64,000 nucleotides of DNA from contig NW_020846475.1 of assembly GCF_003704095.1 (NCBI RefSeq), positions 558,001-622,000 of the forward strand, in the 5' to 3' direction. This DNA is from Pocillopora damicornis. Its lineage: Eukaryota. Below the pieces are notes generated by a model. That model was not told where the DNA came from and ran no database searches. It was given only the letters and a program-made list of their open reading frames with translations. This document shows positions 1,133-54,465 of the stretch, piece after piece; within the stretch, counting starts at the first letter, position 1; each line of letters opens with the position of its first letter. A program made the position numbers and the translations under genes.

Positions 1133-3073
1133 ATGGCCAGATTTCTGTTGCTAGTGGGCGCGATTACTTCAATCTTTTGTCAAGGTGTAATAGCCAAATT
1201 ACGTTGTTGCGGTGAATTTTCCGCGCAGCAAGAAGAACAACTGAGGAATCTACTGAAACAAGAGGCAGGGTCGTTGAGACAGGGCATGCAAATGATGTGT
1301 CCTAGAAGTCCAGGTAAGCTATAAACAAGAACTTGTCTTTCAGTTTGCCTTGCTTATCAGACCGTTTGTCAAAAAATAAAAGTGCTTTCAATCAAGGCGA
1401 ATATTCTTCGTTAAAAAGACATCTGATTACAAGCAAACTACAGTTTGAACTTATTCCATTCTCGAGGGATTTCTTTAACGAGGCACGTCTAGAAAGAAAG
1501 GCGTTTAGGACCAGTTGAGCTTAAAGAATTTCTGATATGCTGACATTTCTTGACTATTTTACTCTCAAATTTGTTTTACACATCCAACCGAGGATAACAA
1601 GAAAACTTTTTCTTTCATAGAGAAAGAGAGGTTCATAGAGACATGCTTGCCAAATTCAGAGTTCATAAATGTCGAAATATAATTCTTGCAAGGCTGCCAA
1701 AATCATATTGTATTTGTTTTTTAGCTTTTATATCGGGAACGTTTCAAACGGTCAGTTTGTAATCCACTATAATCCTTTCCAATCTTAATTATTATCTTTC
1801 ACTTGCACCTCAGTTGATCATTTGGTCAAGGTTCATTTTAGTCAAGCGGTAGCTCCATTTGAAGTCAAATTTAGTCTTGTAAATCGAGCCGACTTGAGCT
1901 GTGATCATGGGGAATAAACACTAGATAAGATCTACAAGAAGATTAAAAAATAACAGTATAATTTATAGATGCCGTGTAAAATTGACTTAGGGAGAGAAAG
2001 ATGGTTACTTTGTAGCTTTTCGTCCGATAAAGAGAAATGATATTTTTTAATCACGAGCGTGAGACAAATAAAAATCTAAATTTCCCACGAGAATTAGAGC
2101 TTCATATCTGCAGATTTTGCATTCAAATTAGATCCTCTAACTCTGAGCTCCAGAGTCCTCGATTGTGAGCAAAGCTCTTTACCAGGTTCGTATTGGGACA
2201 AGCGTCTTGTTTACTTTTAGGATCAGCAACGTCAAGAATTGGCTTCCTTCAAAACGTGCAAACGCTTGTAAAATGTTTATGTGGGCATGGGCTATTCAGA
2301 CTATCGTCTATTTGCAAAAATTCAATAAACCTCCGATTCTTTGTTCGCCTCTCGAATAATTACCAACAATTGAAATTTACGAGCTCACAACGAAAGAATA
2401 GCCTTGAAATAGGCAGTGACAATCATTGAAGAGAATTGCAAACGCTTTTAACCAGATTGAGGAGACCTTCCCAGGTTGTTCTCGGGGAGAGACTTTAACT
2501 TGACCATGCAAAGATCGACTGAATGGTTATTAGCTTTCATGAAAATAACAAAGATGACGTAACTTTTTCATTTCGTTTTCAGGCAAATGGCGAAAATTAA
2601 ATGTGACCAACGCCTGCTTCAGTGCAAATCAAAGTAAACCTGGAATCTTCATTATCCCACAGGAGGGATTTGTCGTCGCTCTCAAAGTTGCCCATATCAG
2701 TGGCAAAGTCACGTGTGAGAAAGACGACTTTCATTCTAAACACGCACATGGTTCGTTTTACAGCAAGTGGGGTTGCTCAATAAATCATCCTTCCATCGGA
2801 ACCACACCCTTGGGGACCTTCATCACCACGTCGTCCAAAGAAATCTTATTCCCACGTGAAAAGTTTATCCGGGACAAGGCGATGTCTGCCTGGTACGCAC
2901 TTCCGGGATTCGGGCCAGATTCCCCATTCCTCGTTTTCCAAGACTTCTCCAATCCAGAATATTTCCAACACGGCCAAGAGCTTCAACTGTGGTACGGCGA
3001 AGTGCTGAAAGGGGTCAGTGTAAATGACAATGATGGCAAAACATGCGCTGAAGTTTATGCCTGGTATCTCTAA
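1133..3073 (+). CDS. Two-exon predicted secreted protein (~223 aa) with an uncharacterised C-terminal Cys/Trp domain
   Basis: Exon 1 1133-1313 has a hydrophobic signal peptide (MARFLLLVGAITSIFCQG) and donor CCAG|GTAAGC, phase 1. Exon 2 2583-3073 follows TTTTCAG and is in frame (GKWRKLNVTNACF...WGC...GQELQLWYGE..NDGKTCAEVYAWYL*). Confidence 0.8.
2040..2237 (-). mobile_element. Degenerate tRNA-derived SINE-like repeat
   Basis: Resembles copies at ~12245-12380 and ~35735-35920 (CACGAGCGTGAGACAAA...CTGAGCT...GGTTCGTATTGGGACAAGCGTC). Confidence 0.55.
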
Positions 3074-4370: not shown

Positions 4371-5459
4371 TGAAATATGTTTGGTTTCATTCAATTCAAT
4401 CCTGTCGAGGAACACACTAACTCCGGCCAAAAACAAAGTTTAATATTCCCAAAGCGCAGAGAGTGACGATTTGTCTTCATTTCCTCGAAGAAGAGGAAAA
4501 ATTGACAATATACTCTGCGCACAAGATCCTTTGACATTTTTTAAAACGGAAGTTGTAAACAAGAAAGATAAATGATTAAATCAGTTGTAGCGCATCCTGC
4601 TCAGCTACTTTACATAAACATTTACGCAATCAACGGGAGCTCCGATAAAAATAAAGTATTCGATTCGCGCATAACATCCATTACTTGTAAACCTGTTCAG
4701 CCGTAATAGTTTTACAACTGCCGAGTTGAAGCACGAGTTTCACGTATGACGTATATGGCGGCGGCAAATGGCATAAAGTGAACTCTGATTTCTATTTCGC
4801 TTTTCCTGTAATCCGCCTAAAAATGATCAACCCTTCAGAAAAGTTGCCAAAAAACTTCTCTTTCCCAGTTAAGGCAAATATTTGAAAGAAAGTGTAGGAA
4901 AAGCTAAAAGCCGATGATAAGAAGTTTCTTTAACCCCGTTTACAGTTCATCATGAACGTCGTACTCAACCTCTGTCCTCTTCCATTGGTCTAAATTAAAT
5001 GAAATTTGAAGAACACGATTTCTAGCAAATTAGTTATACCAACAAGGAGATCCAAACGAAAAACATACAATTAATTACTGTTTCAAAACTGTTCTAACTC
5101 AACTGTCGCTTGTCATAGGAGGCACGTCGCCTGTCATCGCCGGTTATTCATCCCTGTGATAAAATTTATCATTACGTTGTTCCTGTCCTGACATTTAAAT
5201 AAGGTGGACATCCTCCCATCTGATAATAAGTCGCTGAACCAATCAGGGGAATCGAAAATTTGGTAATACCGGCAGTTAAATGTCTTATTCCACAATGAAA
5301 AAGATCTGACGATCTCTGCTTCAATTAGTCATCAGAAGTTTTGATTAAAACATCCCTCGATTTAGAACTTTTTGGTCATAATCTGTTGGATTACAGCTTG
5401 GGCACGCATACTAACAAGCGTAGGAGAATTTTGTTTTTGTTAAGTCAGGCAAATTCAAA

Positions 5460-6326
5460 ATGGCAGATCAAGACGACAAGAGGAAACCAATGACTCAATT
5501 GTCTCTACCATCGCGAAGCAGAAGATTGAGATTTCTCCTCATTTGTGGGAATTGCGATATGGTTTCGGTGGCAGACAATGTGAAGAATAACAATACTCGT
5601 ACCCAGGAAGGGAAAAACGTCATTGCAGTGAGTGAAAATCGCAGCGAAGACAAACATAAAACAGATTTAGAGCGACCATTCCTGGAAGTGAAAGAGGAAC
5701 TGAAAAGTACCGAATTACAAGACCAAGATCAATTTGAGAGATTTAATCAAAGGGCGTTTGATCGTAACGACCATGAATCGCGGAATCAAGACGGGATCGA
5801 GAGAATATGTTGGAGTAGTGACCACGGCAAAGGAAATTACAAGGAAAAAATGGAAGTCACACAACAATCACAAGGTGATTTCCAAATTGCAGAAACGTCG
5901 TTACAATTGCATGAACCTGACATGAGTGAGCAAAGTGGAGGAGGCAGAATGCAAGGAAAGCCTGCTTGCATCAGACCAAACCTCACACGACAACGAGTTG
6001 TAGGCTCTGTAGATTCGTTTCAGAGCCAAGGGAAGCTCGTCGGTGAACCTGAAATCCCGACTATGACAATCATTGAGAATTCGTCGAGCGACGAGAACCA
6101 AACTTCCAGCTTAACCAAAGTTAAGACTAATGGGGCTGCGGCTCAGTCAAACAGGGTTGAAGAGAAATCGCCACGGGGTTCATCAATTAGTCCGTGGAGA
6201 CGGGTAGCAGCTCTTAAATGGAAAATGAACAAAGTGCATGTCAAGAAAATGGAGAAAGATGCAGCTGTTGCCAATGAAGAATACGAGATGATGTTAGAGA
6301 ATCTTACGCTGTACGGTGTCCTATGA
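5460..6326 (+). CDS. Intronless 288-aa uncharacterised protein, mostly low-complexity and probably disordered
   Basis: 867-bp uninterrupted ORF in AT-rich DNA with a good start context (AAAATGGC) and Glu/Gln/Ser/Lys-rich composition. No recognisable domain. Confidence 0.65.
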   Translation: MADQDDKRKPMTQLSLPSRSRRLRFLLICGNCDMVSVADNVKNNNTRTQEGKNVIAVSENRSEDKHKTDLERPFLEVKEELKSTELQDQDQFERFNQRAFDRNDHESRNQDGIERICWSSDHGKGNYKEKMEVTQQSQGDFQIAETSLQLHEPDMSEQSGGGRMQGKPACIRPNLTRQRVVGSVDSFQSQGKLVGEPEIPTMTIIENSSSDENQTSSLTKVKTNGAAAQSNRVEEKSPRGSSISPWRRVAALKWKMNKVHVKKMEKDAAVANEEYEMMLENLTLYGVL

Positions 6327-10100: not shown

Positions 10101-13100
10101 CGTGTCTTCGTCTTCTTTGTCTTCGGAGTCGTCGCAAAGGAGAGGACGAGAGCCTTTCTGCTAAAAGGAAAAGAAAAGTGTTCAAATTAAGTTCACGTTC
10201 ACAGCCGCTGGAAATAAACTTACGACAGCATCATCTGTCCCTGACTCCGAGGCGTTCGTCGCCGTCACAGAATTGTTGTTAGAAGTTGTGTAAAGATGTT
10301 GTTGTAAGAATCTGGTTTTTCTTTTTGTTTATCTCATTCGATGCAACAACAAGAACTGCCAGTACTCACGGTATGTTCGAGAATTCAACTTTAAAAAGAT
10401 TCTATGGAACGTCACATATCAGCTGAAATGTCTGCACTGCACGAATTTGGGCGCTAGGTCACTCACCGATGATCCAGGCCGTGAGGAGTTACTGGACTCC
10501 TTTCCGCTCTTCTTACCACCCTTCCCTTGCATGGGAGAGGCTGCTGCTTTGCGGCTTCCTGACGGAGGTCTCTTGGCCGAGCGGGGGTGGGACGAGGTAG
10601 GAGGGCGCGAACCTGGAAAAACCAACAAATAAGCTTATTAACATCGTGGTCTCGTCCCTAACTGGTTCAGATCTAAGATGCGAACATTCCAGTCGGAGTG
10701 GCCGCTATCTGGGAAAAAGGACATCTAGGTGTAGATTGCAAAAGAACGACTGGTTTAAGAAGAAACAATTTTAAGCAATATTTACGTGTTATTGACCAAG
10801 CGTGAAGGTAAGATGGCTAGATATTGACCGGAAAAAAAGGCTAATATCCTGACATCTTGACCTCACGCTTGGTCAGTAAAGGTATTATTATTTCAAAAGG
10901 ATTTCGCTTTATTAAGAATTAAGAATGACTTGTTTATTTCTAGAGCCGGAAAAGAAAGCCAACTATCTTTGTACCACAATAAATTCACACGAGTCGTTTT
11001 TGTTTTCTTTTTTCTGGACTGTCTTCTGCCGCTTTTTGCGTCTCCATCGCTGACATTGTCCAAGAATAGCCAACTTAGTATTAATTCAATATTTTCATGT
11101 GCGGGATCAAAGGGGGCAATCCCGTACTGGCAGGTAGGCCTATCTTGCCCGCTCGCTTAGCCAATCAACACTTAGGATTCGCTTCATATTGCCCACGGGC
11201 GCTGCCAGCGGTGTAATAAACAACAATATTTACTTTCTAACCTCGTTTTTGTTTTTCATCTTCATCGCCTGTACGGTCGCGGTAAAAAGTAAAAGCAGGG
11301 ATGACTGCATGACTCTTTCCGGTCGTGCTACATACCTCCTGTTCATGATCCAAAATCTTTACAAAAAAAATAAAAAAGTAAATGAAATCGTTTGTAACCC
11401 GCCTGGCGGACAAATGAAAAAAATAAGTCATGGAACATTCGGATAAATGTCAGTTTCTGAACAACAACGCACCTACCCCTCCCCTAACCCATCATTGACC
11501 CTTATTTGTTATTAGTTGACTGTTGTGTGGTTAAGGGAGGGGTAGGTGCGCAGTTGCTCAGATAGGGCCCAGCGTTCTGCTGTCTTTTCCAGGGAAGGGA
11601 AATGATTCCTCGTCATTTTACCTGTAGCTTGATGTACACGTCTGGTTTAGACGTCCCTAGCTGCAAGCTAGCCATGTGATCCTCCTGTACCTTGACTGTG
11701 TACCTAACGCAGCGTACAGAAAATTACTTAGCACCTTAGGAAATGGAAAGCACGTTAGGAAATGTATAGAGAACAGTGTGAAGAATGTGCATACTGGTGT
11801 TAGGATGTAGTACAGGGTTAAGAGTCAAAACACAGTTTATCTTCAAAGTAAGTCAGGTACTGACTGAAGAATTTCATCTACCATCTAACCTGAAAATGAT
11901 GTTGTATTTGTTTGGAATATAATAATCTCTAATCTCCTTGGTGACAAAGTGACTGTTCACTCCCTCTCGTCCAGGGTAGGGTAAGGGTTCTGTAGAACCG
12001 ATCACGCGCAAACGAAACTTTCCCGCCGGGAGAATAGCGTTTGGCGTTCTTGCTTCAGCCACAAACGTGTAACCACGCTGATGAAACAAAGGAAAATCAA
12101 TGACATCAAAAGGTAACATTTGAGCACCACTGAAAACACTAAATAAGCATCAAGTAAGCAACGATGTCGGGTCAATCAGTAACGCCGAGAGCGCCTCTTG
12201 TCCCTACAGGCATCACAAAACAATCACCACCTTACAGAGAGATGTTTTTTCCGTCTTCTCGAGATTGTGCGACAAAGAGAAAATTCTGAGCCCCCATGAA
12301 GAGTCGAACCCGAGAGCTTCAGATTCCGATCTCGGACGCTCTTCCACTGAGCTAAAAACTCTCTTTGGGGAGCTAGGCTACTCTCTCCCTCTCTCTCTCT
12401 CTCTCTCTGTATAAAATAGTTGACAGAATAAGTTACCTTATTCTTCTTTAGGTTATTGGGTGCAACTTTCTGAAAGACCCTGGTCAGTTCTTCCCCCGAG
12501 TCATTGTCTACAACCCGCAACAAACATGTCGGTAAGGTAACGTACAGTTTAGGGACCATGAGCACTGGTTCATCAACGAAGAACACTTCCCTAAAAAAAA
12601 TTCCACAAAAACAAATACTAATTACGTCCAAATATTCCCACAAAATATTCGCCTATCTTATCTCAATGCATTTTCCAATTGCATTATTTGGAAAATTTAT
12701 GCGATTGTGGCAGATGTGTCTATATGCGATCTTGACTGACGAAATTTAGGTTGTCACACGTACAATACGCAACTACGGCACTGATAATAAAATTAAGAAG
12801 CAATTTCACTCGGAGAAATTTGGAAATTTTCCTTCGAGTAACGTCCTTTTGCACTAAGTGCCCTTTCCTAAAGAAATTCCCGCAACGTTTCCGGTCCATT
12901 CCAATCTTCTCAATCCTCAGCCATCCTCGCATAATTTTGGTTTCTTATAATTTTGGAGATTCTCTACCCTAATATAAAGTCACAAAAAAAAAACCGAAAT
13001 AAAAAGCACGGCCTTTTTTCTTACCTAAAAACCACAAACCAAGACTGGGGAGGCTGCTCAGGATACCCCCCGTTGTAGTCAGAGTACGCCACGCGACTCC

Positions 13101-16100
13101 ACTCATCTTTGAAGAAAGGAAACAAAGGGAACAGTTCTGAATCCCGTTTGAACATGAACCTGAAGATCTGAATGGCAAAGCTCTCCAAGTTAGGTTCGAT
13201 AACACCCCAAGCTTTGGACAGAAGCTCCCATACTTTCTGGTGCTCGTCGGTACCTGTGAGAAAAATTTGGAAAATTAATAATCTCGAGAGATGACGAAGT
13301 GATGCGTCCTAGCTCAAAGGTAAGAATTGTTACGAAACATCTCTACAGAAATAATTTTTTGGGGAGTTCGACCATCAGTCGTGATCCATTAGCAACGATT
13401 AAGATGTGTGAGTAACCGCACAAAACAATTTAAACAACTGAGGAGAATAGGAAATAGTGTGGATAGCTTTCTCCGTTATCCGAAAGATTGCTTATTCGTC
13501 AATTGACTCTGAGTGCATGAACCTTTACCAGGTTTACCAACTGTCGGAGTGGGCTTCAAAAAGTTCAAGTTGCCAAGTAGAACTATTGAAGATGGACTCA
13601 GTTGCTTTCTTGCCCATACTCACACAGAACTTGTTTTTTCCCGCCGCGAATGGATCGTCAGATTTTACCTTGTCTTTGTAGCTTTCCAGCACAGGCACTC
13701 GGCTAAAATTTTCTCGTTCGCCTGTTTCATATTCGTCCTCTTCCTTACTGATAATCTCTTATCCTAACCTTTACTAGTGGCCACACATTACACTACAAAG
13801 GCTCAATCACTTCATCGCTGTTTTTCTCTGGTACATTGTTAAAAACTTAAGCGCACCACACCAACCTTTTACGTATGCTCGTGCCAGTTTTCGAAGGAAA
13901 TAACCCCTGAAAGCGGCCTGGATCTTAGTAGCAGCGCCTTCTTCTTCACTGTTTGATGTGCGATCTACCCAAGTGGGAGGTACTGCACCAGCACTCTTAA
14001 CGGCCCGCTTCTTTGTCATTGAACCGATCCTCGTGATCTCCGCTGCTGACAAGGGCCTGTGGCCGACTCGCTGATGCAAGCAGAGAGAGGCTTGGAACTG
14101 AAAAGCTTTCCAGGCAAAGTGCATCGGTAAATCGTAACAATCGGCGAGATGGAATCTGACACTCTTCAGAAGACACCTCATAAAAACCTGATGAAAGTAT
14201 GTACATAAAATTTAAATTTAGTGTAAGCACACTCCACGATCTTAAAGATTCAAGCAATGTGATTGGTTCGCTATCTAGTTCCGATGAACATTCTCCACTC
14301 TCTGGCGAGTGAATAATGCGTGTTTTGAAACCAAAAACTCAATGGCTGAGAAAGACATGCAATTATTAGGTGTGTGGCTCAACGGAGACTAGGAAGCACC
14401 TCGCAAGTTCATTCCACATCCCGTCATTTCGTTTCTATCGTAACGCATCATAAAGCTTTTAACAGAAACATTGTATCCCAGCGTATCCCGCACGGACGTA
14501 TTCCAAAGTGTAGTATTAAATGTGCAATCAATAACCTCACCGTACCTTGTAATGCCTATCTTGAATGTCTTTCGTCTGATCCTTAAGTCCAAGATCCAAG
14601 TCAAACTTCCTGTCAGCAGGAGGATCAGCGAATGATCCAACAAGGCTGCTAACTGACTGAAACACATTCATGGCGTGCTCCAGGAAACGACAACTTTCCT
14701 AGCAGAAAAAAAACACGAGGTGTGTCACCACTTGTCAGCCAGGTTTCCCCGGCTGATTGCAAAAACAGTCATACTATAAGGCGTATTTAATAACGTTTAA
14801 AGAAACGAATTTTTCTTCTTCCTTTAATAACAAAATAAGAACATCACTAACGAGGTTGTCAACCTTAAGGTATAAACATCTTCTTACACCTAGTTCCATA
14901 CTTAATTTCCAAGTCGAGATTTAACTCTAGACAAGAGAGTATAATATCGTTCATAATATCTTGCTCTGGATGTGCTACAAACGTAGTTCTGATGGACACG
15001 TGTAAGACATTGATTAGTTCTGTACACGTACCTTTGTGAGACAAGTCATTACTGTGTCTTCGTCGCCATAAACAAATGGCGTCTGTGAAGCCATTTCCAC
15101 GTGATAACCGTGAGGGGCTTGGACAAGAAATCTTAACACGTGACGCCTACAAAGATAGAACGTGAGAGAAACGTAATAAGACGTTGTGTTTCCTGTTATT
15201 TCATTTGCGGCTTCGAAACCTTTTCCTTTTGCTCTAATTTTCCATAAATTCCTAGAGAAGAGCGAAACTAATAACTAAAATCCCGCTCCTATGAGATTAT
15301 GAGATATCTGTACAGAGTCCCTATGTTTGGTTAATCGGTTTGGAATGCCACGTGCAAATTCCCCCCTTTCCCCCTCCCCCCCGAAAAAAAAGGAAAACCC
15401 AGCAAGGATCTCTGTACAATAGATTGTAATCATGAAACCTTTTGCTGAAGATTCCAGACCTATCGGTACCTACCCCGGCGGTAGAACAAGGACGGCTGCC
15501 TTGGTGCCTGAAGTGCGAATGCGTAGAATTGGCTGACCCGTCACCAGGCTCTTCCAAGAGTACGGTTCCGCAACGAGTAAGCCTGGGGTGGGTGGTACAG
15601 GTTTCTCCTCAACCTGAGCTGCTTCCCTTGGATCTGCTAAAAACAGAGAACAGAAACAATAGACTTGTAACACAGAAACATTGGTTTACACCACGCAGGT
15701 AGGTTCCCACGCTCACAGCTTAAAATGATCATCAATCCTATTTCACAATATTTGGATTAAGAACCTTTGTCATACCTCGAAAAAAAACTGTTCACCAAAA
15801 AATTGGAGTACTTTTCAGTAACATATGAACGAAGAATCATCACAAATAGGTTTTACGCTGCTGCCAATAATGGATTTTTCAGGGAACATTTGGGTTGTTT
15901 CAGACAAGTTTAAAGAAGTCACGTTCAGATGTTTGTGATAAGCGGCTTTCGTTCCATTTTGTATGTTTCTGCTGTTAAATGACCATTACTATGATTCACA
16001 GAAGGTTTGGCTTTCACCCTCCTTCACGTTACTGAATAGCGCATCTACACGTCGAAATAACTTCTACACGATGATATTGGTTTAAATGTTGCTATAATAC

Positions 16101-19100
16101 AATATAAGCCCTGAATCCAAAGAACCTACCTCAGCTTACTGTAAAATACTTGGTTGACGTAAATAGGCGACAACTTGCTAACTACATTTACATATAAGTA
16201 AGCTCTACTGTTCAGTTCTCACCTGTTACTACGCTATTAGAATCCTTTTCCTTTTCCTTTTCCTTATCTCTTTCTCTGATAACGGGCTGCGGTGGATCAA
16301 GCCACCTAGAGAAAGCAGTGAAGCTTACCACAATTTCGATGGGTTTCAGACTGTCAACAAACAGGAACGGTGGGGGTGGGTCTTGATTTTGACTTAGTCC
16401 ACCAAACGAACCGTGATATGGTGACGGACTGAGCCCTGTGGCCTTCCCAGGTGCAGGCGTAGTTGCTGTGACTGACGAGGCTGGTATCAGGCCTGACTTT
16501 TTACTAACATGACTGGTCATTGCAACATTCTGGAAATTAACAAGATTTAGGCCAGAAATGAAAAAAGTTTACAGAGATAAGCTTCACAAGGAGGTGTGTG
16601 CTGGATTTTGTTGGTTCCCAGTGCGAAGGTTTGAGGGAAACATGGAAAGCGTAAGGGCAATAGTCAAATTTTGCAAAGACGTCAAACTTCCCGGTTCAAG
16701 AAAAACGCAAAATGCCTCGCCCACGACCTAATTGCAGCCAGGGCTTGAACCCTCAGCTCTTTTGAACCAGAATCTTGCGTGTTAGGTGGCCATTGAGACA
16801 ACACGTCTTGCTTATATTAGAAAAGTGGAGTAATTGTGAAACCTCTAATGATCCTCTTTGTCCAAAATGTTAAGGCGGAGTTAGAAATATTATAACGAGC
16901 GTGGTTACACGTGCAGAACGAAGCAATCTAACAGTGCTTGGTGGAAAAATTAAATGAAATTAGGTGGACGAGAAGGAATAAGGTGAATTTGTGATAATTT
17001 TGTTGTTGATGAAAAACTCACAGATAGCAACGACATTTCACTTTCTTGTCTTTTAAGCCTACGTCCCATAACAGAGGACATCTTCCTTTCAGATGTCACG
17101 GAATTGTGATGATGTTGGTGATGATGATGAACATTAATAGGAATGAAAACCCAGCTCTGACAATAATTCATGCATTAGTATGTATCAATTAGTATGTTTT
17201 ACTTGTATCTATTTTCTTTAGTTTAACTCTTTTACACTATCTACAATGCTAGGCGTGTGATGATCGTCGGGGAGAGAGTAGCTCAACATGCTGCTGGATT
17301 AAAGAGACAAACAGGACACTAAATGAGGGTAAAACAGTTACGGTATTAACACTAAGCACGATAAACTCACTTTACTAACCGATACACCACGTTTGAAATA
17401 AGAAACAACGTCATAACAACAACAAAAACAACCACAACAACAGAACTGAAGATAAGTGCATATGTTGTATTAGTTTTAGGGAAGCATTTCAAAATTACTC
17501 GGTCACCAACAGCCAAACTGAACAAACATTTGGCAACAAGGGAGAAGTAGGCAGCTGCCATAATCAAAAGCAATCAAAAGATGGATTTGTATTTAAAGAC
17601 CACAGCTACAGCAGAATAAGGAGTTCAAATGTAATGTCAATTTAAAAGGATTCGGCTTGAAAGTTTTCAGGTGCAGCTTCAGACAAACATAGCACCAGAA
17701 ATGTAAAGTACAATGACTCAGTGAAAGCCAGTTTGGTGACAAGCAGAGGGGAATCACCATGTTGAAAAAGAACGATATAGAGAACGATAAAAGAGATATA
17801 AAGGTGAAAAAGATCATTTTGCTTTTAAAACATCAGTAAGAAATCCCAGTTGAAAACGGCGACAAGCAGAAAAGACACGAGCAAAGCAATAGAAGATACA
17901 TGTACCTCTAAAGGGCTTGAGTAAGTTATTTCCACTTCTGAGATTAAAGATTGGTTTAGAGATGAACACTTATCAATGTGAGAGAAAGAAACAAACATAT
18001 TGTTAGAGACTTTAAATGTTACATATGTTAAAAAAGTTAAAGGTTATCTTTGGGATATTGTTAGNNNNNNNNNNNNNNNNNNNNNNNNNNNNNNNNNNNN
18101 NNNNNNNNNNNNNNNNNNNNNNNNNNNNNNNNNNNNNNNNNNNNNNNNNNNNNNNNNNNNNNNNAAGTACAAGTGTACTTATCTTCAGTTTTTAATTTTC
18201 GTATGTAAGTAACTTGAAAAATAAACTGTGTAGTGGGAGAAAACGACGAAAATAACAACAACCAAAAACAAAACCAAACAAACAAAGTAACAAAAAGCAC
18301 TTACTTTTGATCAAATCTCCGGGTTTTTCCATCCTTGACATTCTTCGACTTGCCTTGGGTGACAGACCACCCGACTTGGTTCTCTCTGGTTTGTCCACAA
18401 CACTCAGTTTGCTACCACTTCTACTTTTATCACTCTTGTCAGGACTTTTAAGCAACTTATCTTTCTCTCCTTTGTCACTCTTTGCTGATTTTTCTCTCTC
18501 TTTTGATTTAGAAGAATCCTTGGTACTTGGACGGTCTCGAAGGCTTTCACGGCTCTCTTTGCTTTCTTGATCTGGCTTGAGTTCATCGTTTTCTAGTCTT
18601 GGCGTTGAAGTCTTGGACTTTTCGTCCTTAATGAATAGATCGGGAAAAAAATACGAATCTGTGATCATGTACACAAAGATAAATGCAAGAGTTTCATCAT
18701 AAGCCGGTCTAACGTCGCCTATAAAACCTCTTACCGCCGTCTGTTTAGCCTGCAAACTGGCTCTCGCGTTTGGGTTTCACCTTCGGCTCCTGTACAAGCA
18801 TAGCGACCTATTGTTGTACACCGTCGGCAGCCGTTTAGGGAAAAAGTTATTGAGATCCCTGTACATGTAATGGTGAATACGTACAATATTTGCTCTACTT
18901 TCTAGGAGTTACAGTACTTTTACTTATCTTTATAAAACACTGTTATTGAAGCACTTTAACTGCTAAATACAATTCTCTCATCACACATTTTTCAGTGGTC
19001 AGTTTAATGTCACTTTAATATCAACTTCTCTAATTTGTAAAATCAAAGAGAGGGGAGCTACAGAGTAGATCGATGTTAGAAGATACTCACACATGTGGTG

Positions 19101-29911: not shown

Positions 29912-29957
29912 NNNNNNNNNNNNNNNNNNNNNNNNNNNNNNNNNNNNNNNNNNNNNN
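29912..29957. other. Assembly gap
   Basis: Run of N. Confidence 0.99.
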
Positions 29958-30467: not shown

Positions 30468-32300
30468 TTTAATTTTACCTTTGAGACAGTGTGATGTTTC
30501 TGGGGACTTGCAGCGTTTCTGTAACGAAGACAGCAAATAACTTAAGCGCATTCAGTGTACGTTGTTGACTAATTTAAATTTTTTAATGTTATGATTGTAA
30601 TAAATTTTCGTTGTAACATGTATCTTATACTGATTCAAGGATCAATTTATGAAAAATGAATTTAAGCATCGACGAAAATCATCTTTAAGAAGCTCATCAC
30701 ACACTGCTAACTTAAACCAACATATCTTTCCTTCTTCGTTTTGTTATTCATTGCGAGAGTTCTCGGTAACTTACAATTAGTGTAGCATCATGACGACTAG
30801 TATCGCACCGATGATGGGTTGTATCGGATCGCATTTCTTTTAGTTTAGTGAATAAAAAATAAAAGTCTCACTTTGCTTCTCCAAGATGCGTTATCAAGAT
30901 GCCACTTCGAATGCACTGTTGGAAGTCCTCGACTCTTCAAACTTCGTGCATAATATTTTCATGCGGGCATAATTAAACCACTTCTTATATTAAACAGATT
31001 GTGTAACAAGTCTTCCAAAGTTTCCTCCAGCTGCGGTGTCAAATGATTTTCAATGGCATAAAACCACCTGCTGATAACTAAATATGGTATAAGCCTTAGA
31101 ATTGGCGCATAGTGGAGGCGGGACTTTGGGGCTTTAAAGCGTTTATTTGTTGTGTAACCATTAAGTTATTTTGTTACCTTGTCGCTGAATTTGATTGACA
31201 ATTATAATCGATGAGCTCGATGAGAAAAGTGTTTAGTATAACTGCAACGGGTGATTATCAGTGACTATAGTGTTTTTTAAGTTTGTTTTCGCTTCGAAAA
31301 AAAAAAAGGAATAACAAGATCACCTTTTTAATAACAGTACTTCAGTATTGTAAATTACCACCGTACATGAGCCAACTCTTCTCTAAGCCTTTAATTTTGA
31401 TTCACTTAAAAAAAAAGGAAAAAACAGGCGCTGCGAAGTCTGTTCCATGTCAAGTCCGTTCATACCGTTCTTGGAAAAAGTGCAACATTCTGCTATTTTT
31501 CAAAAATTAGACTGGACTGGACTGGATGTTGTTATTCGTGCAGTTCTTAAAACCTATCCACTTAACGATGAATTAAAACGCTAGGGAGAGTTTACATACT
31601 GAACAATCCTGGAAGTCAAAGGCGTTACTGTGAAGCTCCTAAAACTGTAAACACCGGACATCTTTTAGAAATGTGAGTGAATTAAGGAAAAAAAGCCAAC
31701 GAAGCGTGAGAAATTTTTAGCTGAACGCACTAATTTTGGTTTTGAGGTTTGTTTACATGACCTGATCTCTCATATAAAAACATATAAACAGCATTACATA
31801 ACGTCTGTACGACACAATTAACAATGCACAACATAAATAAATAACACGATAAATATCGCAGACACATCTTTTAAGGTGATAGCTAGACAATAACGGCCAG
31901 TTACTCTCCGCACTTTCCCGCCGCATGAAGATGAATAGAGGGGAAAAAACCATGAGGAAACGGGAAAGTGTTGTGTATTCTGGTAACGAGAAGGTATTGT
32001 GACAGAAAACAAAATACCTTCATTTTTTTTAAATTCCATCTTATGCACAGAATCTTAATAATAATGATATTTATTAATTCAATATTTCGCAAATGTAAAT
32101 TTACTATTTTACAGCTGCGCATTACAAAATCTTATTATCTCCTCAGAGATCATCGTCAGGCCTTTGTACCGTAACAAAAATACAGGGCCATTTTAAGCGC
32201 GTACTGGCGTTACCTAAAAAGTATATACACGTCTCCAATTTCTCAAAATAATATCTGAATTTTTTAGGTACGACTGGCTCTAAATCGGGCTCTGTTCGGC

Positions 32301-35300
32301 ATGGCTGTCTTGCTATTCAAAGCATTCACCGCTGTACTGCTGATATCATTTGGATTTTCCATGGTTCATGGATACTTGTTGACTGTATTGCACACGAACG
32401 ACCATCATGGCCGATTCGAAGAAACAGACACCAGCGGTGGCCTTTGCTTCCCGAGATTGGCAAAAGCAGGAGAGTGTTTTGGTGGAGTGGCGAGGAGAGC
32501 CACTATGATAAAAAAGATTCGAGCGGAGGAGAAAAACGTGCTGCTTCTCTCTGGCGGAGACGTGTTTACGGGAACGCTGTGGTATCTAGCCTATCGTGGA
32601 AATGCTTCAAGGAAATTCATGAATGAACTTGGATATGACGCCATGGTATACAGTTTTTTTTTCCACTTTAATTCATACCGGTTTAAATAGCATGATTAGT
32701 GAGCCAAGGCCTGTTATCGATCGAGGACATCGATTCACGCAAGTTGTCGTGAGTGCCCTTTGCACCTGTGCTAGAATTTTAGCGGGGACCTTTGTTCACA
32801 AATACTTTCCAAAAAGGCAGAATTTGTAGGTTATGAATTAAGCGGTCGCTAATCACAGATTTTCTTAAACAAAACTAGACTGAGTGAACTCGAGTTTTAA
32901 GCCCACCCCAGTCCCTCAGAAACTCTTTACCAACGGTTGCTAGTAATCCGGACTGCCAGTCTTTTGACGATGGGCAGGCGATGCAAAGTTTCCTATGGAG
33001 AAAAGGAGCTAGGATAAGAGACTCCAAGAGACTCCCAAAACACACCCTGTCTCCCTCGCGTCTCGTTCTCGTTCTCGTTCCAAATCTCTAAATTTTTGAA
33101 CGGAGCAGACCACCGGAAATCGAAGAAGTCCTGGTAAGAGCATGGAAGAAAATACACCATCGACCTGCTCCAGTCCATGTAAAGAACTAAGCATTCTATA
33201 GATACTTCCAGTATTACTTAAAATCTCTTGGTGATTGCACAAGATCTTGAACACTCCTGTCCCGAACCCAGAACAAGAACAAGGCGCTACTTCTTAATTT
33301 TTATTTCCTGCTCGCTTGTCGAACTAAGCTGAGAGGAAAAAGGGCTGCTCGTAAACTAATCTCCTTTTCCCTTTCTGTTAGGCCCTCGGAAATCACGAAT
33401 TTGACGACGGTGTTGACAATCTCGTTGCCTTCCTAAAAGCTGTGAATTTCTCCGTTGTGGTTTCAAACTTGAATGTCTCCTTGGAGCCGAGCTGGCCTAA
33501 GTCGCCTCCACTCTTTGTTAGGTCAAAGGTCTTTGACGTTGGAGGCGAAAAAATTGGAATTGTGGGATATGTACTGCAAAAAACGCCAAAGTGAGCAAAT
33601 GTTCTAATAACTTGCATAGCTGGCGGAATTACGCGCGCAATTGCTTTATATTAAAACAAGTAGAGAATTCCTGAAGGCCTCAGTACGCTCAGAGTCAAGA
33701 GATGATGTTTCATGATCATCAAGTGACTGCGAGAAGGCCCTTATTATTGTCGCTTCGGCAAGAGTGTTTCTTCGCCCGCGGGAAAGTACGAGGCTAAGAG
33801 TAACACGAGTCGGCGAGAGGTCTGGTAAGGTACTAGCATTTATTATTAGTGCCAGACCCTTAGCAAACCTCTGCCCGACTCGTCTAAAATCTTCCCGGGG
33901 TCGGAAAAACGCGCGTCTTTCAACGATAATAATGATTGCACACAGGCTATCTCATACACAAAATTTGTAGCCGCGAGATGGTTTGCAGTCAATCTACAGG
34001 ACTTGTATCGTTTAATGTACGAAATGAGCATAAGCTCAGATATTTTGAAAGACCAAAGCCAGGAAGTAGTAAACCAGGCAAATAAATGAATACGCAAATG
34101 AGTAAATAAATAATATAATTAAGCAGAGCAAAGATTCAGAGCCCTTTTGTTGCGAACGTGATCTTCTTGCAGAATGGTAATGTCACAGCTTTGACTTATT
34201 ATTGACTGAGAAGCTAACTGCACGTGAAATTAGGAAAAAGAACACAACAGTCTCCTATCATTCGTTGGAATATCGTAGTTGGAATGTAGCGTAACGCAGT
34301 GGCTAATTAAGGTTGCTACGCTAACGATAAGAAGCAGAAGACTAGTTGCTTCAGGGGGAAGAAGAATGTTGTTTTATGCATTCTCAAATTTGTTCATGTT
34401 TTATACATACATGGTTAATACTCATGCACTATCCATCATATTAAGAAAAAACACACGAACTAAGGAAACACCTTTATTGACATTTTTCCTAAGATATATT
34501 TTTTACATTTGTCTATGAAAGGGTTTCCAAACCTGGTCCAGGACCAAACGTGAAATTTCTACCCGAGGTAGAATCACTCAAGAGTGCTGTGCAGGAGCTA
34601 AAAAAGCAGAACATCAATAAGATCATTGCTGTGGGCCACTCTGGTATTGATATGGACAAGAAAATTGCTAAAGAAGTGGATGGAGTCGACATAGTGGTGG
34701 GTGGACATACTAACACCTTCCTTTACACAGGTAATAGTCGTATTAGAACCAAACATTTAGAATTATAGATTTCCTTTGTTCTGTAAGTTATGTGATATTT
34801 ATTACTAAGATCTCGCCAAGAAATAAGTGTTATCGCTCTAGGAATTCTATTCAATTGTATCTTCCATTTTGGTAGACATCGAATTTCGACGCTGCCGCGA
34901 AAGGGCAGCAAGCATCGTGGTATAACTAATTTCCAGCTTCATATATTTCCGCTACATCCAATGGCTCAATTCCATTCCAGGTGGAGATGAGGAGGGGGGG
35001 GAGGTATGAAATTTTTCATACCTCTTGTAAGGCTCTGTAGTATTCTTCTGATACCCTCACTGACAGTCAATTCAGTGGCACTCAATTTTCTATCGTCTCC
35101 TCGGCTTTATATACTCTGTCGGCGGCGACTGATGCCCCCTTTGTTCACCCTGAAAACTATGTTCTCCCTCAAAATCCTCCACCCCTCCCCCTCCGAGGCG
35201 GTAAATAAAGACTGGTTCCTGAACTTCTCGCATGAATCTGTTCGATTTCTTCCTACCATGCAACATTTTAGGTACCCCACCCTCCACGCAAAAGCCCTAC

Positions 35301-37696
35301 GGCCCGTATCCTCTAGTGATTACGCCAGACAGTGATCCTGATGGTAAAGTGCTGGTTGTTCAAGATTATAAGTACGGTAAATGTCTAGGACGTTTAAACG
35401 TCGAGTTTGATGGTGATGGTAAACTTACTTCCTGGAATGGGAATCCCATAATACTGGACAATTCGGTAGCGAAGGATCCAACAATAGAGCGAGAAGTTCA
35501 AGAGATGAAGGCTAAAGTGACCGAACTTGTTGACGTGAGTATCAATTCTTGTTTATGAGCTTCATAAGTCAGTATCAGAGGGAGCTGCCAGGTTTAAAGC
35601 TTGGATTTCAATTCGCTGTACAAACCTGGAATCTGTCTGGATTAAAAAAAAAGAAAAAGAAATAAAGACGGATAAAAAAATACTTAAAAAAATTAAACAC
35701 TGAAAAACGTAACGACTCAAAATGAGGTGAGATGATTTCTCATCTTATCACGAACGCGAGACAAAGAAAAACTTTTTAAAACCCTATTAGGAGTCGATAC
35801 TTAAACCTCTGGATTCCGCTCGCCTACGGTCCTCCATTAATGAGCTACAGGGAAATTTTCAGTGAGTTAGGCCATTACCAAGTTCATGTGTGACACGTTT
35901 CTTGCAGTCTGCTTGGACTAAAAAAATCACTTCATGAGGACTTTTTTGAACAGGCCACGTAAGCTCTTCATTTTACATAAATACGAGATAACGCAAAAAA
36001 AAAAAAGAAAAAACTGTTTTTACAATTTAGTTTAAAGTGGGCACGAGTTTCGTCTTCCTCAACGCTGAAAAACCAGACTGTCTGTTGAAAGAATGCAATT
36101 TGGGTAACCTTTTTACGGATGCCTTTGTTTTCCACAACGCTAACCTGACTGCCAGTGAAACTCAGTGGACTGAAGCGAGTATTGCAATTCAGAATAGTGG
36201 CAGCATTACAGCATCAATGTTCGTCAGTGCTCAAGGTAAAAGTCAACCTGACCTCGTTCCCAGGGTCCTCTCTCTTCTTTTGGCGAGAAAATACTTTCTC
36301 GAGAGAGGACCCTTGGAACGAGGCTGAGTAAGAGTATGTTTATTAAGAGAAAGGGGGAGAGGTGGTTGTCATTCCATGCTCGTAATTGCGTCACAAAATA
36401 AGAGAGTATCTACCCGACGGAGCAAATTTTAAGTTGAAGAAACGTTTTCTTCGCAGAACCGGTTTAGGATCTAATCAAAGTTACCTTTCTCAAAATATAT
36501 GTCTAACAAGCCTTGTTGCTGTATTCAACAAAATTGTCTTTTCTGGGCGGGGTAATTTTCTTAAATATTTCGAAGGGGAATAATTTCGAGAGAAGAAAAC
36601 TACGAGGAATGTAAGGAAAGGAAATTAAAAATAAAATCGTATTATTTACAGCCAGATACTTTCGGTATTCACAAACTGACACGAGTTCGGTTAATTTCAT
36701 GCATAGAGATTTTTCAACTAATTTTTTTTCCCGCTTATATTTCTCCTACACAGAAGCTGTCACTTACGGTTACGTTGTGAACAGCTTCCCGTATAGAAAT
36801 ACTGTCGATATTGTGGAACTCACGGGCGAGGATCTTACGCTGGTCTTCGAACAAGTAGCTACATTGTACGATAAAAACGACCCCAGCAATTCATTTCTAC
36901 AAGTCTCAGGTAATTGTGTGCTTTTTTCTAAAAGTTTAAACATCATTTGGGTTAATTTTAATCGAAAGCCAGGAATTGCATCGATTATGCTTTGCTTCGC
37001 CCTCCGATTGGTCCAGAGAACTCGTGCTGCCCTTTCAACAAATCAGATACAAAACTTAAAGCAGCCGCAACTTGGACACCCGCGTTTTCCCGCGCTTCTC
37101 ATTGTTTGATATTATTTGGCTCTTCTATTCTGATTAGGCATTGTGTTTGATCAGGTTTTGGTTTGCAAGAACTCGTCGATGGGCGAGTAGAACATAGTTA
37201 AATGAAGGCGATGAATTTTGACTGCTAAATAACATTGCCTACGGTGTGCATGCTCCAGAAAGGAGTTCAATAAACTTTTTCTCACTGCTTTCTAGGACTC
37301 AGAGTAAAGTACGACATGAGAAAGCCTGAAGGTAGCCGAGTCGTAGAAATCCAGGTCCGCTGTGCTTCCTGTAGATTCCCTTCTTATCAACCAGTAGTCC
37401 TGTCCACTGTTTACAAAGTGATCCTCTCGTCCTACATTGTCCGAGGTGGAGCGGGTCTGACTGCCATTGACGAGAAGAAACTTTCTCATCAAGTTGGTAA
37501 CAATACCGTCGACAGAGTGATTGCAAACTATTTCAAGGCAAAATCGCCCATTATGACAGGCGTAGAGGGCAGGATAACTTTTATGAACGACAATGACGAC
37601 AAGCTCTGTGTGAATGGGGTGAACACGTTCGGATTGCGTTTCCCTCTGCTAATTGGTGCCATAACATCATCAGTTTTTAGGGCAATTTTCAACTGA
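32301..37696 (+). CDS. Ecto-5'-nucleotidase (CD73/NT5E-family)-like protein with signal peptide and likely GPI tail; 7 exons
   Basis: Exons 32301-32645, 33382-33590, 34522-34730, 35272-35534, 36031-36235, 36754-36909, 37296-37696. Motifs LHTNDHHGRFEE, GGDVFTGT, ALGNHEFD, VGHSG, VVGGHTNTFLY, ECNLGN, FLQVSG, EGRI; hydrophobic C-terminus. Confidence 0.92.
35735..35920 (-). mobile_element. Degenerate tRNA-derived SINE copy
   Basis: Similar to the copies at 12245-12380 and 2040-2237. Confidence 0.55.
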
Positions 37697-37777
37697 GTGT
37701 CGAAAGTAATCCGAGATTGCCTTGCTTTTGCTTTACTTTGCTCTGTGATTGGCCCAGAAAATTACTATAGTAATAAC

Positions 37778-38937: not shown

Positions 38938-47894
<8,957 letters not shown>

Positions 47895-49098: not shown

Positions 49099-52000
49099 AT
49101 GTGGCTTCTTTGTCTTTTTTGTTCAGTAATCCTCCTGTTCGCAGTTGAAACAGGTAATTTGGTATTTGTTAGAAAGACAGTCGAGCCGTCCCACACACCA
49201 TGCGTTCACTGCTTTTCGGCCGTGCTTTTGCAGTTATCAAATAAACGACTGATATAAATTGTTCATGAAACAAAACTGATCGGTGAAGGTAGCAAAGGAT
49301 TTATAGTCATTCATAAGTTGTTTTTTCGTTTACTTTGGTTTTTAAATATTTTCATTTAAAGCCGAGGGCACTAGAGGAAACCCTTAACTCTCCACGTTGC
49401 AGTGTTAAGGAAGTTCTGATAAGGGAACCATCTTAATCGTTCCACATCAAAAACTATTTTGTTTCAAAATCCAGTCACGAGGCTCTGCATAAGTTTATTA
49501 TTTTTTTGTAAGTTTTTTTTTTGATGATCTGTTGTCTGTTAAATTCTCCCTGATTGGTTGAGACCCTCATTCAAGTACCCGAATCTCGAATCCCAAATTG
49601 TGGCCCTGATGTATATATCTCTACGGCGTACAAAACAGAAGTCAGTAGGTGCGTGTGTATATGTTTTAAAGGTGTTTGAGACTTTCGGTAGTGCACGAGG
49701 GAAGAGGTATTTTTTGCGCGCTTGTGCTTGCTTGTGCTCACCAACGCTTGATGAAAAACGCAAAAAAGCCATATTCCTGTTTGAATTTAGACACTACCGC
49801 CACTTCCTCTGTTGAGCCATTGTGTCTTGCATCAGCGGAGTCCACCCGAAGTGGTCTTGCCACCATCCTGGATAAAGTGAAACGTGTCTACTTCCAACAG
49901 CTTCACCCAGAGACGATTCACGAGATGAGTCCGAAATCACCCGAAAATATCCGAAAGTATTTTCAGCCTTACGATCCCAGCCCAAATGCTATCAAGGGAA
50001 GAACTGATGAAGCCATGAAGTTATATCGAGAGCTAAAGGCTTTAAAAATCAATAAAAAGTTGTTGAAGCTGAGAGAGCGTAAGGCTGTTCATATGGCCAG
50101 TGCCATTTTGTTGAATAACTACGGCTGGAATCCATACAACCAGGACTACTACGCTGGGGAATGGCTTTCAGGACCAAACCTGCTCTGCTGGGAGCCTGTT
50201 TGTAGCGTGTTTCCAAACCTAAATGGCGTTTTGCCTCATTTCAAACCAAAAAATGTGGCCGATTTAGAAACATTGAAGGGACTTATCGAAAAATACAGTC
50301 TAATATTTGACAGGTACGTGGAGAATTGGAAACTTGGAGTCCGCACAGGATATGTAAGAACCTACAAAGCATGTAAAGTGGGTGTACATGTTCTCAAGAA
50401 CCAAAAATATAAAGGAATGGAAACAGAGCAAGGTTTGTATCGGCTCACTACTTTGTATCACCGAAACCACTGAAACAAATAATGCTGCGCCCGATTACTA
50501 ATTCTAGTTTAGAAGATAAGTCGTGACTACCCTTTGAGTCAGACTGGCACTGTCCATTTTATATTTTACATTTATAGGTAAAAAAGTACCCTTCTAAAAT
50601 GATGATAATAAAAATGCTTCCTTTTTTCATATGCCCTCAGTCAGTAGATCTAACTAAACGCTTTAGTTTATATTACTGCTCAGGAATTCTCTTCGGGGAA
50701 TTGGTGTAAATTTCGCAAAAGAAGTCCGCTGCGTTGAGTAAACAGCAAAAATATCACTTAATGGTTTCCTTTTTCTCCCGCACAAGGAATTTATGATCAG
50801 GAGTTTGCAAAGACTCTTCTGAAACCAGAATTCTTCGAAAGTCTCACAAAGGCCATGAAGGATACTTGGACGGCAAAGTACCAGAACACTGTAGAGGAAT
50901 ACTTCAAGCAGTCTATACTGCAGAACATCGGAATACCTGTTACTCGTATGATAAGGTAAAGGTTAAGGAACTATATACGGATCTTCCGGCCCTAGGCCAT
51001 GCACACAACTTCCTTGAAAACTTTAATTTGTTCTGTTATGCTGCTGCGCTCTGCTCTATACTCTTTCTATTCTCCTCATTCAGAGCACATGTCTCAATCC
51101 ATCTATTGCAAAGCTGAAATTAATCGCGACTTGGTTACTCGTGTTTTTCTCGTCTTTCGGGCAGTTCGGTTGTTCAGTCGTCGCCATTAGCTCCTTGGTA
51201 TAATTTCCCTTGTCCTGATTGGCTATTGTACCAAGTTACCTTTTCAGTTTTGTCTTTAAAAGACTCGCATGAAATTCCCTCCCGGGGCTAAAATATGGTA
51301 TATTTCATCCACTTGTGATCAACGATGTTAAATAGACACATTTCGCTGTGTTTCTAATTTCGCGATAGTTACCTTGAGAATGAATACTTATGTAACTGCC
51401 CCAATCAAGAGGAAGTGTTGAGTGGCTTGGGTAAACTTCCACTCCGTTACTTCATAAAGAAAGAGACTCTTCAAAAACTTCCCAACGGGCAGAGACTCAG
51501 CGGAGCCAGGACGTATCAGAGGCTCATGAGGTTCTTTACTACAATGGACGTTTCTCCGGCGCAGCTCAGGACTAAAGCTGTAGGGAGGCTATCCGAGCTG
51601 TATAGAAAGGTATGAAGGAAACGGGGCGGAAGGGGAGAGAGGAGTGGGACATATCTGAACAGACAAGCTGACGGACAGACTGGCTGATTGACACACAGAT
51701 GACTAAAAGCCTGACAAAGTGACAAACTGTAAGAATGACAGACCGATAGCCCGTAAAAGTCATAGACTGAAAGAATGAAAGACTGACAGTCTTACGGGTT
51801 GACAAAATGATGGATTGATACACTAAGCAAAATGACAAAATAATAGGAGGGCAGACCAACAGACCGAAGGACTGACTACTTGACTGACCGACAGATCGAC
51901 AAACTTGTAAATGGTCAACAGACTGTCGAACTCAAAGACTGACAGAATGTCAGATAGACAAACTCGAGAATTCACAGACAGACAAACCATCAGACCGACA

Positions 52001-54465
52001 TACTAACAAAACGACTCCGTGGCTGACAAAATGACAGATTGACAGTTTAAAATTTCATACTGGCAGACCGATGGATTGAAAACCAGATTGATCAACAATG
52101 TTAAACGGACACATTCATATATCAGATTTTATACATTGACAGCACTTACTAAACGGCCAATGATAATTACTTGTCTCAGTAATTAATGACTCCGTACCTG
52201 ACTGATTGCGGCTATTTTCGTTCTTTCTGCAGGTTGTCATTCTTGCGAAGTTGTACACCAAGGAACAGAATAAGAATACCGCTATCAACAAGTTAAAAAA
52301 AGTGTTGCGGAATCGTGATCAGTGGTTCAACAACCAGCCGTTTCCTAGCAGCGAGAGTGGTGAGGACGCCTTCGTTATGTGCCACGACACGGCGAGTGCG
52401 CAGGTTCATTGCCCCGAGAGATGGAAAGCCTTGCAATCGTGAATTAAAAATACTAACAGAGTGCGTAAAGCAACTGTTTATTTACCATTTGACGGCTTAA
52501 GACGTGTCTATTAACCAAGAAATTTTCATTTTTGTACGCCTGCGAAAATTTTGTAAACATGATACTGAAAGGTCAGGGGTCCTGTGGAAGATGATATTTG
52601 AACCGTGCAATTTCTGGTGCACACACTACTTAATTTAACTCGAAAATATAATTTGCACGTTATTTAGGAACTGAAGACTTTCCTCCAAAAGTCGCTAAAT
52701 GCGTCAGGTGTCAATAATTATTTATTCTTATTTATTAACCATTAAAATGAAAGGTACGTTGGCTCTCTCCGAGTCTGAGTCACCTGTTTCATTTAAAGAG
52801 ACAAGACGCGATAAAATCAAATTCACATTTTGTTTGACTGGATACACTAATACTTTAACAGAACAGTTCTTTACTTTCACCTTGTAATAATCATTGCTAT
52901 TGTAGGTCATGAAAACAAAAGTAAAGCCAGTCATTGACACACTCTTTTATAGTAGTGGTCGTAAGAAAACCGTCCCTGCCTGTTCCTTGGAGGTCACAGC
53001 AGATTTCCATCCTTTTGTCAGCTATCATGCCTACGGGGTCGGATCCAAGGATTGCACATCAAAGAGCACACAATATCTGCCATTTTTCATGGACAAGTTT
53101 GGTCCAAAATGGACGGAATATACCACAACAGCTCACGAACAACTTCCTGGACACCAACTGGAGGTTGGTGAAGTTCAGTTGGTGATTTGAGTAAATCTTT
53201 CAACAAAGTCTCTACCTTTTCTCTTTTAGAAAGATAAGATACACGACATGCCAAATTATTCTGTCCAGGTAAAATGTTTTTGACTAGACGCATACCTGAG
53301 TGTACTCAGGCGCTGGTAATGGTGAAATCTAGGCGCCGTTTTCATAGTAAACTACATTTGTTTCTTGTCTAAATTTTATTTGCATGCTTTTTTTTTTTTT
53401 TTTTTCAAAATTGAGATAAAACAAAACATCTGTTTGAAGAGGAAAGAGATGACTGATATCAACATTGATCTCAACTACCTAAAATCGATAGGTTCAGAGC
53501 TATGTCGAGTATTTTGAAGACAGCTGCGAAGATGCCATTCATTGGCTGGGAGCCTTCAACTACTTCCCAGGATTCACCGAAGGGTGGACAACTTACATTG
53601 AGTACGAGCTGCTGCCTCAAGACTCCAATCTTTATTCAGATACTTCAGACAAGGAGGTGTTGCTACAGAAGTACGGCATGATCTACTACCAGGTAATTAT
53701 GAAAACCCAGAAAGAGAGGTTCATAAATGAAGGGAGCTAAGCAAGATTCAGCAAAGTTGTGCCTCTAAGTTTGGAGGACTCTGAAGTCAGTCTTCCTGAG
53801 AAATATTGAAAACTTTGAATTGAGAAGGTGAATCCGAGCCATGTCATGAGTCCATGCGCTCTATTTGTTGAGGTTAAGAGATCAGCTTATTTCCCTACCA
53901 TGGTTTCAGACATATCTTTGAGAGAGATATCTTTGCTCATTCGTTAAGTTCCCATGCTCTATTCAAGAACTCTCTTACTCCGTCAAGAACTCCCTTAATC
54001 TGGCCCGGCGTACTAACTCGAACATCTTAAGACGGGAAATATTCTATTTACATTCCGTTAAAAAAAAAAAGTTTATGGGGCGTTTCTTTCGTTTGTCAAC
54101 AGATTTTAGCCGCCCTTCGCATTATTGTTGACATCGATCTAAACTATTACGACAAGACAACTTCTGATGCGCTGTATCTGTACAAGCTGTACGCCTGGGA
54201 AGACAATACAGACCTAGCACAAAAAGATATCTTGAGATCACAAGCCCTACCAGGATTTGTAGCCAGCTATGTGTTTGGTCAAATGGAAATCTCCCGTGTC
54301 AGGGGCATGGCCGAGAGAGGACTGGGGCGAGATTTCAACTTGAAAGATTTTCATTACGAGGTGTTACGCCTGGGAGAATATCCCTTAGGGTACTTAGAGG
54401 AACACATACGGGCCTATATTGCTTGTAAGAAAAACCCCGATCGCGATGAATGTAAAGAGTTTTAG
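49099..54465 (+). pseudogene. DUF885-family secreted putative metallopeptidase, copy A; one in-frame TGA (52440-52442), so pseudogene or null allele unless a sequencing error
   Basis: Exons 49099-49153 (signal peptide MWLLCLFCSVILLFA), 49791-50432, 50787-50955, 51369-51609, 52233-52460, 52906-53163, 53492-53692, 54103-54465. DUF885 motifs TAHEQLPGHQLE, FTEGWTTYIE, IVDIDL, PGFVASYVFGQMEI..R..AERGLGRDFNLKDFHYEVLRLGEYPL. Confidence 0.8.
51650..52110. repeat. Degenerate (GACA/GACT)n low-complexity repeat in an intron
   Basis: Dense GACAGA/GACTGAC units. Confidence 0.7.

What the first reader, a model, noticed from the sequence alone, without database searches (positions are those of the whole stretch)
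13026..14698. Androglobin globin domain has distal His and CD1 Phe but apparently no proximal F8 His
Exon 14546-14698 translates ESCRFLEHAMNVFQSVSSLVGSFADPPADRKFDLDLGLKDQTKDIQDRHYK. Against human ADGB as recalled (ESCRFTEQ...LKDLQTAHYP...AQHFRVF; E7 Gln, F8 His), E7 here is His. The F-helix segment is shorter, Pro-broken and His-free, and the only later His (RHYKVF) aligns with the helix-G His. Exon 13026-13253 has LFPFFKDE where human has SYPCYQDE, giving a canonical CD1 Phe and no partner Cys for the intradomain disulfide. Inference: a heme-less pseudoglobin or an unconventional heme ligation mode.
Basis: partly seen in the sequence, partly recalled or inferred. Interest (0 to 1): 0.7.

Follow-up and report, generated by a model that had tools for sequence, protein, structure and literature searches.

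The report
Cnidarian androglobin lost its heme histidine
In this stony coral, and in every coral, sea anemone and jellyfish checked, the cilia protein androglobin lacks the histidine that normally holds heme iron, so its globin part likely works as a heme-free calmodulin-carrying scaffold, which matters because anemones are being proposed as models for the heme-binding human protein.

Summary
The minus-strand gene is an expressed stony-coral androglobin. RNA contigs from 4 of 4 runs splice exon 14546-14698 whole, with no extra letters. The His in RHYK is G4, not F8: it is placed there by alignment to hemoglobin, by an AlphaFold model and by the ancestral G7.0 intron. The F helix is replaced by a Pro/Gly-broken segment. 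None of 11 cnidarian species has the F8 His, against 66 of 77 named bilaterians and 5 of 5 named choanoflagellate proteins, so it was likely lost in early cnidarians. E7 His, CD1 Phe and the missing disulfide are ancestral or common, not coral novelties. The new segment is conserved across anthozoans, while the jellyfish domain evolves faster. Best reading (0.6): a heme-free globin scaffold presenting the IQ motif to calmodulin in the ciliary C1b projection. Rival (0.25): heme held by E7 His. Insect androglobins are a published precedent for loss. I found the cnidarian case in no paper searched, but could not read Hoogewijs 2012. The scan had not reported it on other DNA; it had noted shark E7 His.

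The parts
14546..14698 (-). Exon encoding globin helices D/E, the segment replacing helix F, and G1-G6
14675..14677 (-). E7 (distal) His codon
14567..14626 (-). Segment replacing helix F (E7+17 to +36; DPP...LDLGL motif); no His; not helical in the model
14579..14581 (-). Asp codon at the ungapped F8 position (E7+32)
14552..14554 (-). His of RHYK = helix position G4, not F8
14188..14545 (-). Phase-0 intron between G6 and G7 = ancestral globin G7.0 intron position
   Evidence: G7.0 conservation from PMC7457136 passages
13866..14187 (-). Exon encoding rest of helix G, helix H, linker and IQ motif
13891..13923 (-). IQ calmodulin-binding motif
   Evidence: Pfam IQ E 1.1e-05
13025..13253 (-). Exon encoding helices A-C, CD corner and start of androglobin domain IV
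13162..13164 (-). B10 Phe codon
13120..13122 (-). CD1 Phe codon; the Cys978-equivalent two codons on (13116-13114) is Phe
15032..15636 (-). Two exons (15474-15636, 15032-15146) of androglobin domain II upstream of the globin
12437..12590 (-). Exon of androglobin domain IV downstream of the globin

Best explanation
This coral androglobin keeps the permuted globin fold and IQ motif but has no F helix histidine, a state shared by all cnidarians sampled, and it likely binds no heme and works as a structural module that presents its IQ helix to calmodulin in the ciliary central apparatus. Shown: the sequence, its splicing, the absence of a His between helices E and G, and the distribution across species. 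Predicted: helices A, B, C, E, G and H fold, while the F region is an ordered non-helical loop. Inferred: the His was lost once in early cnidarians; the conserved Leu-x-Leu-Gly-Leu segment packs into the empty heme crevice; E7 His, B10 Phe and CD1 Phe are ancestral residues kept for packing; the protein sits in the C1b projection with SPEF2 and calmodulin as in mammals and ciliates.
For: F8 His in 0 of 11 cnidarian species, 66 of 77 named bilaterians (two unalignable ecdysozoan rows left out) and 5 of 5 named choanoflagellate proteins (S. rosetta by offset only). Cnidarians form one clade, support 0.999. Matched AlphaFold models: the coral has no helix at residues 33-53 (pLDDT 86-92) and the RHYK His lies in helix 54-79; the annelid Owenia has helix 37-51 ending on its His. 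A profile alignment to hemoglobin alpha puts HYKVF at G4-G8, and the G7.0 intron agrees. The jellyfish globin is relaxed: 43/99 identical at 118/140 flank identity, against 57/104 and 70/104 in His-bearing bilaterian pairs of similar flank identity; Rhopilema has also lost E7 His. A strict IQ motif is in 11 of 11 cnidarians. Human calmodulin binding and centrosome targeting survive F8/E7 mutation (PMC9249397 and PMC13696810 passages). Globin-less androglobins serve in C1b (PMC8175508, PMC13331133), and the two chytrid hits lack the domain.
Against: No heme-binding measurement exists. In anthozoans the globin is not diverging faster than in His-bearing animals (globin/flank distance ratio 1.5-2.5 against 1.4-3.6). 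The distal pocket is canonical (B10, B14, CD1 Phe, E7 His in 10 of 11 cnidarians), whereas hexapods that lost F8 also lost E7 (PMC7457136 passage). AlphaFold models carry no heme, and the human apo model also fills the heme space (PMC11077535), so the model cannot separate 'no heme' from 'apo'. No named sponge, ctenophore, placozoan or hydrozoan sequence was retrieved, so a single cnidarian-stem loss rests on anthozoans and two scyphozoans. The ciliary location is inferred from orthologues.
Confidence: 0.6

Rival explanations
1. Anthozoan androglobin still binds heme, with the retained E7 His as the axial ligand from the distal side, possibly helped by G4 His, and the new loop closes the proximal face.
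For: E7 His in 10 of 11 and G4 His in 11 of 11 cnidarians; B10/B14/CD1/CD3 all Phe in the seven hexacorallians tabulated. The remodelled segment is conserved: 18/20 with Montipora and 13/20 with Nematostella. Heme transfer to the distal His is reported for Hb M Iwate (bioRxiv 10.1101/2021.03.28.437393 passage). Lamprey independently shows E7 His with a Pro-rich, out-of-register F region.
Against: E7 His is ancestral and sits in a generally conserved stretch. G4 His is equally conserved in animals that have F8 His. No cnidarian-wide gain of a new ligand residue was found: G5 is Tyr or Phe, and the H-helix His is anthozoan-only and aligns far from the iron (position recalled from globin structure). 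Hb M Iwate keeps helix F and is unstable. The jellyfish domain is relaxed.
Confidence: 0.25
2. The pocket is kept but holds a non-heme hydrophobic ligand (fatty acid or bilin), as in RsbR-type or phycocyanin-type globins.
For: Non-heme globin folds with other ligands exist (PMC8717448 passages). The anthozoan pocket lining is conserved and hydrophobic.
Against: No conserved basic residue or Cys at the F8 or E7 position (Asp, Arg, Asn, Glu or Ser at F8). The fold search ranks heme globins first and RsbR only 24th (Z 3.8), although all these Z values are low.
Confidence: 0.1
3. Artefact: an assembly error, a missed micro-exon or a misalignment hides a normal F8 His.
For: The gap position is ambiguous. 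Dendronephthya has two His in the segment (+24, +35).
Against: 4 of 4 RNA runs splice the exon whole. The same state is found in 11 species and in two further metagenome exons. The Dendronephthya His are out of register and unshared. The G7.0 intron and the model fix RHYK in helix G.
Confidence: 0.03

Closest known systems
Human androglobin globin domain (Reeder et al. 2024, PMC11077535; parts 1-3 of 7 and supplement part 3 read)
   Same: Same domain order (calpain, domain II, globin D-H, IQ, A-C, domains IV and V), same E7 and CD1 register, Cys787-equivalent present.
   Different: Human: F8 His824, E7 Gln792, CD1 Tyr976, Cys787-Cys978 disulfide proposed, binds heme and NO in vitro. Coral: no F8 His or F helix, E7 His, CD1 Phe, no Cys978 partner.
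Hexapod androglobins with degenerate globin domains (Prothmann et al. 2020, PMC7457136; passages and Data Sheet 2 text read, its alignment is a picture)
   Same: Androglobin orthologues that lack the F8 His.
   Different: Hexapods lost both E7 and F8 and the domain is barely recognisable. The anthozoan domain is well conserved, keeps E7 His, B10 and CD1 Phe and still hits globins (Pfam Globin E 0.0087, under the cut-off; globins top the fold search).
Globin-less androglobin/FAP42 of ciliates, algae and chytrids (PMC8175508, PMC13331133; passages and named sections read)
   Same: Ciliary C1b protein that does its job without a heme site.
   Different: These lack the globin altogether; the coral protein keeps the fold and the IQ motif.
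Non-heme globin folds RsbR, phycocyanin, photoglobin (PMC8717448 passages)
   Same: Globin fold without the proximal His.
   Different: Prokaryotic or algal, not permuted, with their own ligand-binding residues that are not seen here.
Hb M Iwate (alpha His87Tyr)
   Same: Loss of F8 His with E7 His present; heme reported to move to the distal His when reduced.
   Different: A point variant with helix F intact, whereas here helix F itself is replaced.

Membership tests
Androglobin (ADGB) | N-terminal calpain-like domain plus androglobin domains II, IV, V | tested here: met
   Pfam hits over cut-off on P0289, which is identical to the window over the globin region; exon hits
Androglobin (ADGB) | Circularly permuted globin: D-H, then IQ, then A-C | tested here: met
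   E-H profile hits hemoglobins E 1e-8; A-C exon gives 8 of 8 globin hits, each weak, E 0.18-1.4; IQ between them
Androglobin (ADGB) | Single-copy gene | tested here: met
   One match in the own genome with the IQ exon (lower bound)
Androglobin (ADGB) | Location in the C1b projection of motile cilia; calmodulin binding | not testable with these tools
   Inferred from orthologues
Heme-binding globins | Proximal His at F8 on helix F | tested here: not met
Heme-binding globins | CD1 Phe (or Tyr) | tested here: met
Heme-binding globins | E7 His/Gln | tested here: met
Heme-binding globins | 3-over-3 helical fold | tested here: inconclusive
   Model pLDDT 87 with helices A, B, C, E, G, H but no F; best structural matches cytoglobin and neuroglobin Z 5.8, rmsd 3.7-3.9, 95-96 aligned; the His-bearing control scored no better (best Z 4.4); Foldseek nothing under E 0.001
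Heme-binding globins | Binds heme | not testable with these tools
   Needs recombinant protein
Non-heme globin folds (RsbR, phycocyanin) | Family-specific ligand residue (Arg or Tyr at the F8 analogue, Cys at the E7 analogue) | tested here: not met
   F8 position is Asp and varies among cnidarians; E7 is His (features)

The most novel reading that the evidence does not exclude
Anthozoan androglobin is a naturally evolved globin that has discarded helix F yet still binds heme through its distal E7 histidine, an inside-out ligation kept since corals, anemones and soft corals split, giving their cilia a gas or redox sensor of a new geometry.
Probability: 0.2. Interest if true: 0.8.

Novelty: new variant of a known kind. 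Interest (0 to 1): 0.5.

Why it matters
Whether androglobin's heme matters for cilia and sperm is open: the human domain binds heme and NO in vitro, but its known cell-level activities survive loss of the heme ligands. A 2026 paper (PMC13331133) credits the globin with possible O2- or redox-sensitive roles and names cnidarians as an interesting taxon for functional work; its main text has 0 occurrences of 'histidine' or 'proximal'. If cnidarian androglobin is heme-free, an animal phylum runs its cilia and sperm without that site, and Nematostella would test the scaffold role but not the heme role. If it still binds heme, it is a globin ligated without helix F. One recombinant protein decides between the two.

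Tried and rejected
Missed micro-exon or assembly slip: rejected. RHYK His as F8: rejected. E7 His as a compensating gain: rejected, it is ancestral or widespread. Loss of the disulfide as a coral feature: rejected; both Cys occur together in only 1 of 14 bony vertebrates sampled and in no invertebrate. A second intact androglobin copy: one match only. Sequence search of solved structures with the E-F exon gave one chance hit; no animal androglobin is in that copy, only FAP42 and calpains. Fold-search Z-scores do not separate coral from control, so they are no evidence on helix F. Foldseek found nothing. Named sponge, ctenophore, placozoan and hydrozoan orthologues were sought (names) and none was identified; two unnamed His-less proteins (P0281, P0176) could not be placed. 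The Atlas gave only androglobin clusters, scores under 0.9. Hoogewijs et al. 2012 is not held and may show the Nematostella state in its alignment. Literature searches. No complex prediction was run, since an IQ-calmodulin pair is a textbook case and heme cannot be scored.
Full report
What the locus is. The finding lies in a minus-strand, multi-exon gene. The exon 14546-14698 translates as quoted. Its closest named relatives are androglobins of stony corals, and the spliced globin region is identical to database proteins labelled Pocillopora damicornis androglobin-like. That protein carries the calpain, androglobin II, IV and V and IQ Pfam families over or near cut-off, and a sub-threshold Globin hit. 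One copy was found in the genome.

Noticed in passing
P0325/P0142 (lamprey androglobin): Lamprey keeps E7 His and CD1 Phe but has a Pro-rich F region without an in-register His, an apparent independent parallel to the cnidarian state.
   Followed up: partly
P0018, P0019, P0117, P0108, P0096, P0113, P0112: His-to-Tyr at F8 in seven bilaterian species (two sea cucumbers, a land snail, an acoel, two sharks, gar); Tyr could ligate iron as in Hb M.
   Followed up: partly
P0203 (Strigamia maritima, UniRef T1J9C4): A centipede androglobin-like protein with Ile at F8, although PMC7457136 reports no Adgb in arthropods outside hexapods.
   Followed up: partly
P0212, P0245, P0260 (Mylnosiga fluctuans): Three divergent globin-bearing androglobins (about 32% identical) under one choanoflagellate label, against the described single-copy rule; paralogues or a mixed transcriptome.
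   Followed up: no
P0281/P0186 (unnamed, JGI): A 1357-residue androglobin with globin domain but no F8 His, called as one ORF on contigs up to 19.7 kb; lineage unresolved.
   Followed up: partly
window 13025-13253; P0280: The coral A-C exon has no B12.2 intron, while a Salpingoeca urceolata isoform reads off into unrelated sequence right at B12, which looks like a retained B12.2 intron.
   Followed up: no
P0290 (Pocillopora verrucosa model): Helix G is replaced by unrelated sequence after the G7.0 intron; probably a mis-spliced gene model.
   Followed up: no
window about 49670-61000 (+): Tandem, intron-split genes of the bacterial DUF885 family (Pfam E 4e-19 at 54031-54462, E 8e-4 at 57284-57973) in a coral genome.
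   Followed up: partly
window about 32250-37700 (+): A 5'-nucleotidase gene (Pfam 5_nucleotid_C at 37274-37693).
   Followed up: partly
window 41303-41530 (-): WD40 exon; it resembles RBBP4/7 from recall (Pfam WD40).
   Followed up: no
window 5424-6323 (+) and 2558-3070 (+): A 300-codon and a 171-codon open frame without Pfam hit; the first lies just beyond the 3' end of androglobin on the opposite strand.
   Followed up: no
window 18065-18164, 29912-29957, 58857-58956: Three runs of N; none touches the globin exons.
   Followed up: yes
G000 contigs C2278, C155, C3534, C545, C2431, C464, C77, C4130: 15 exon matches to Pfam Globin elsewhere in the genome, several clustered; ordinary globins were not examined further.
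   Followed up: no
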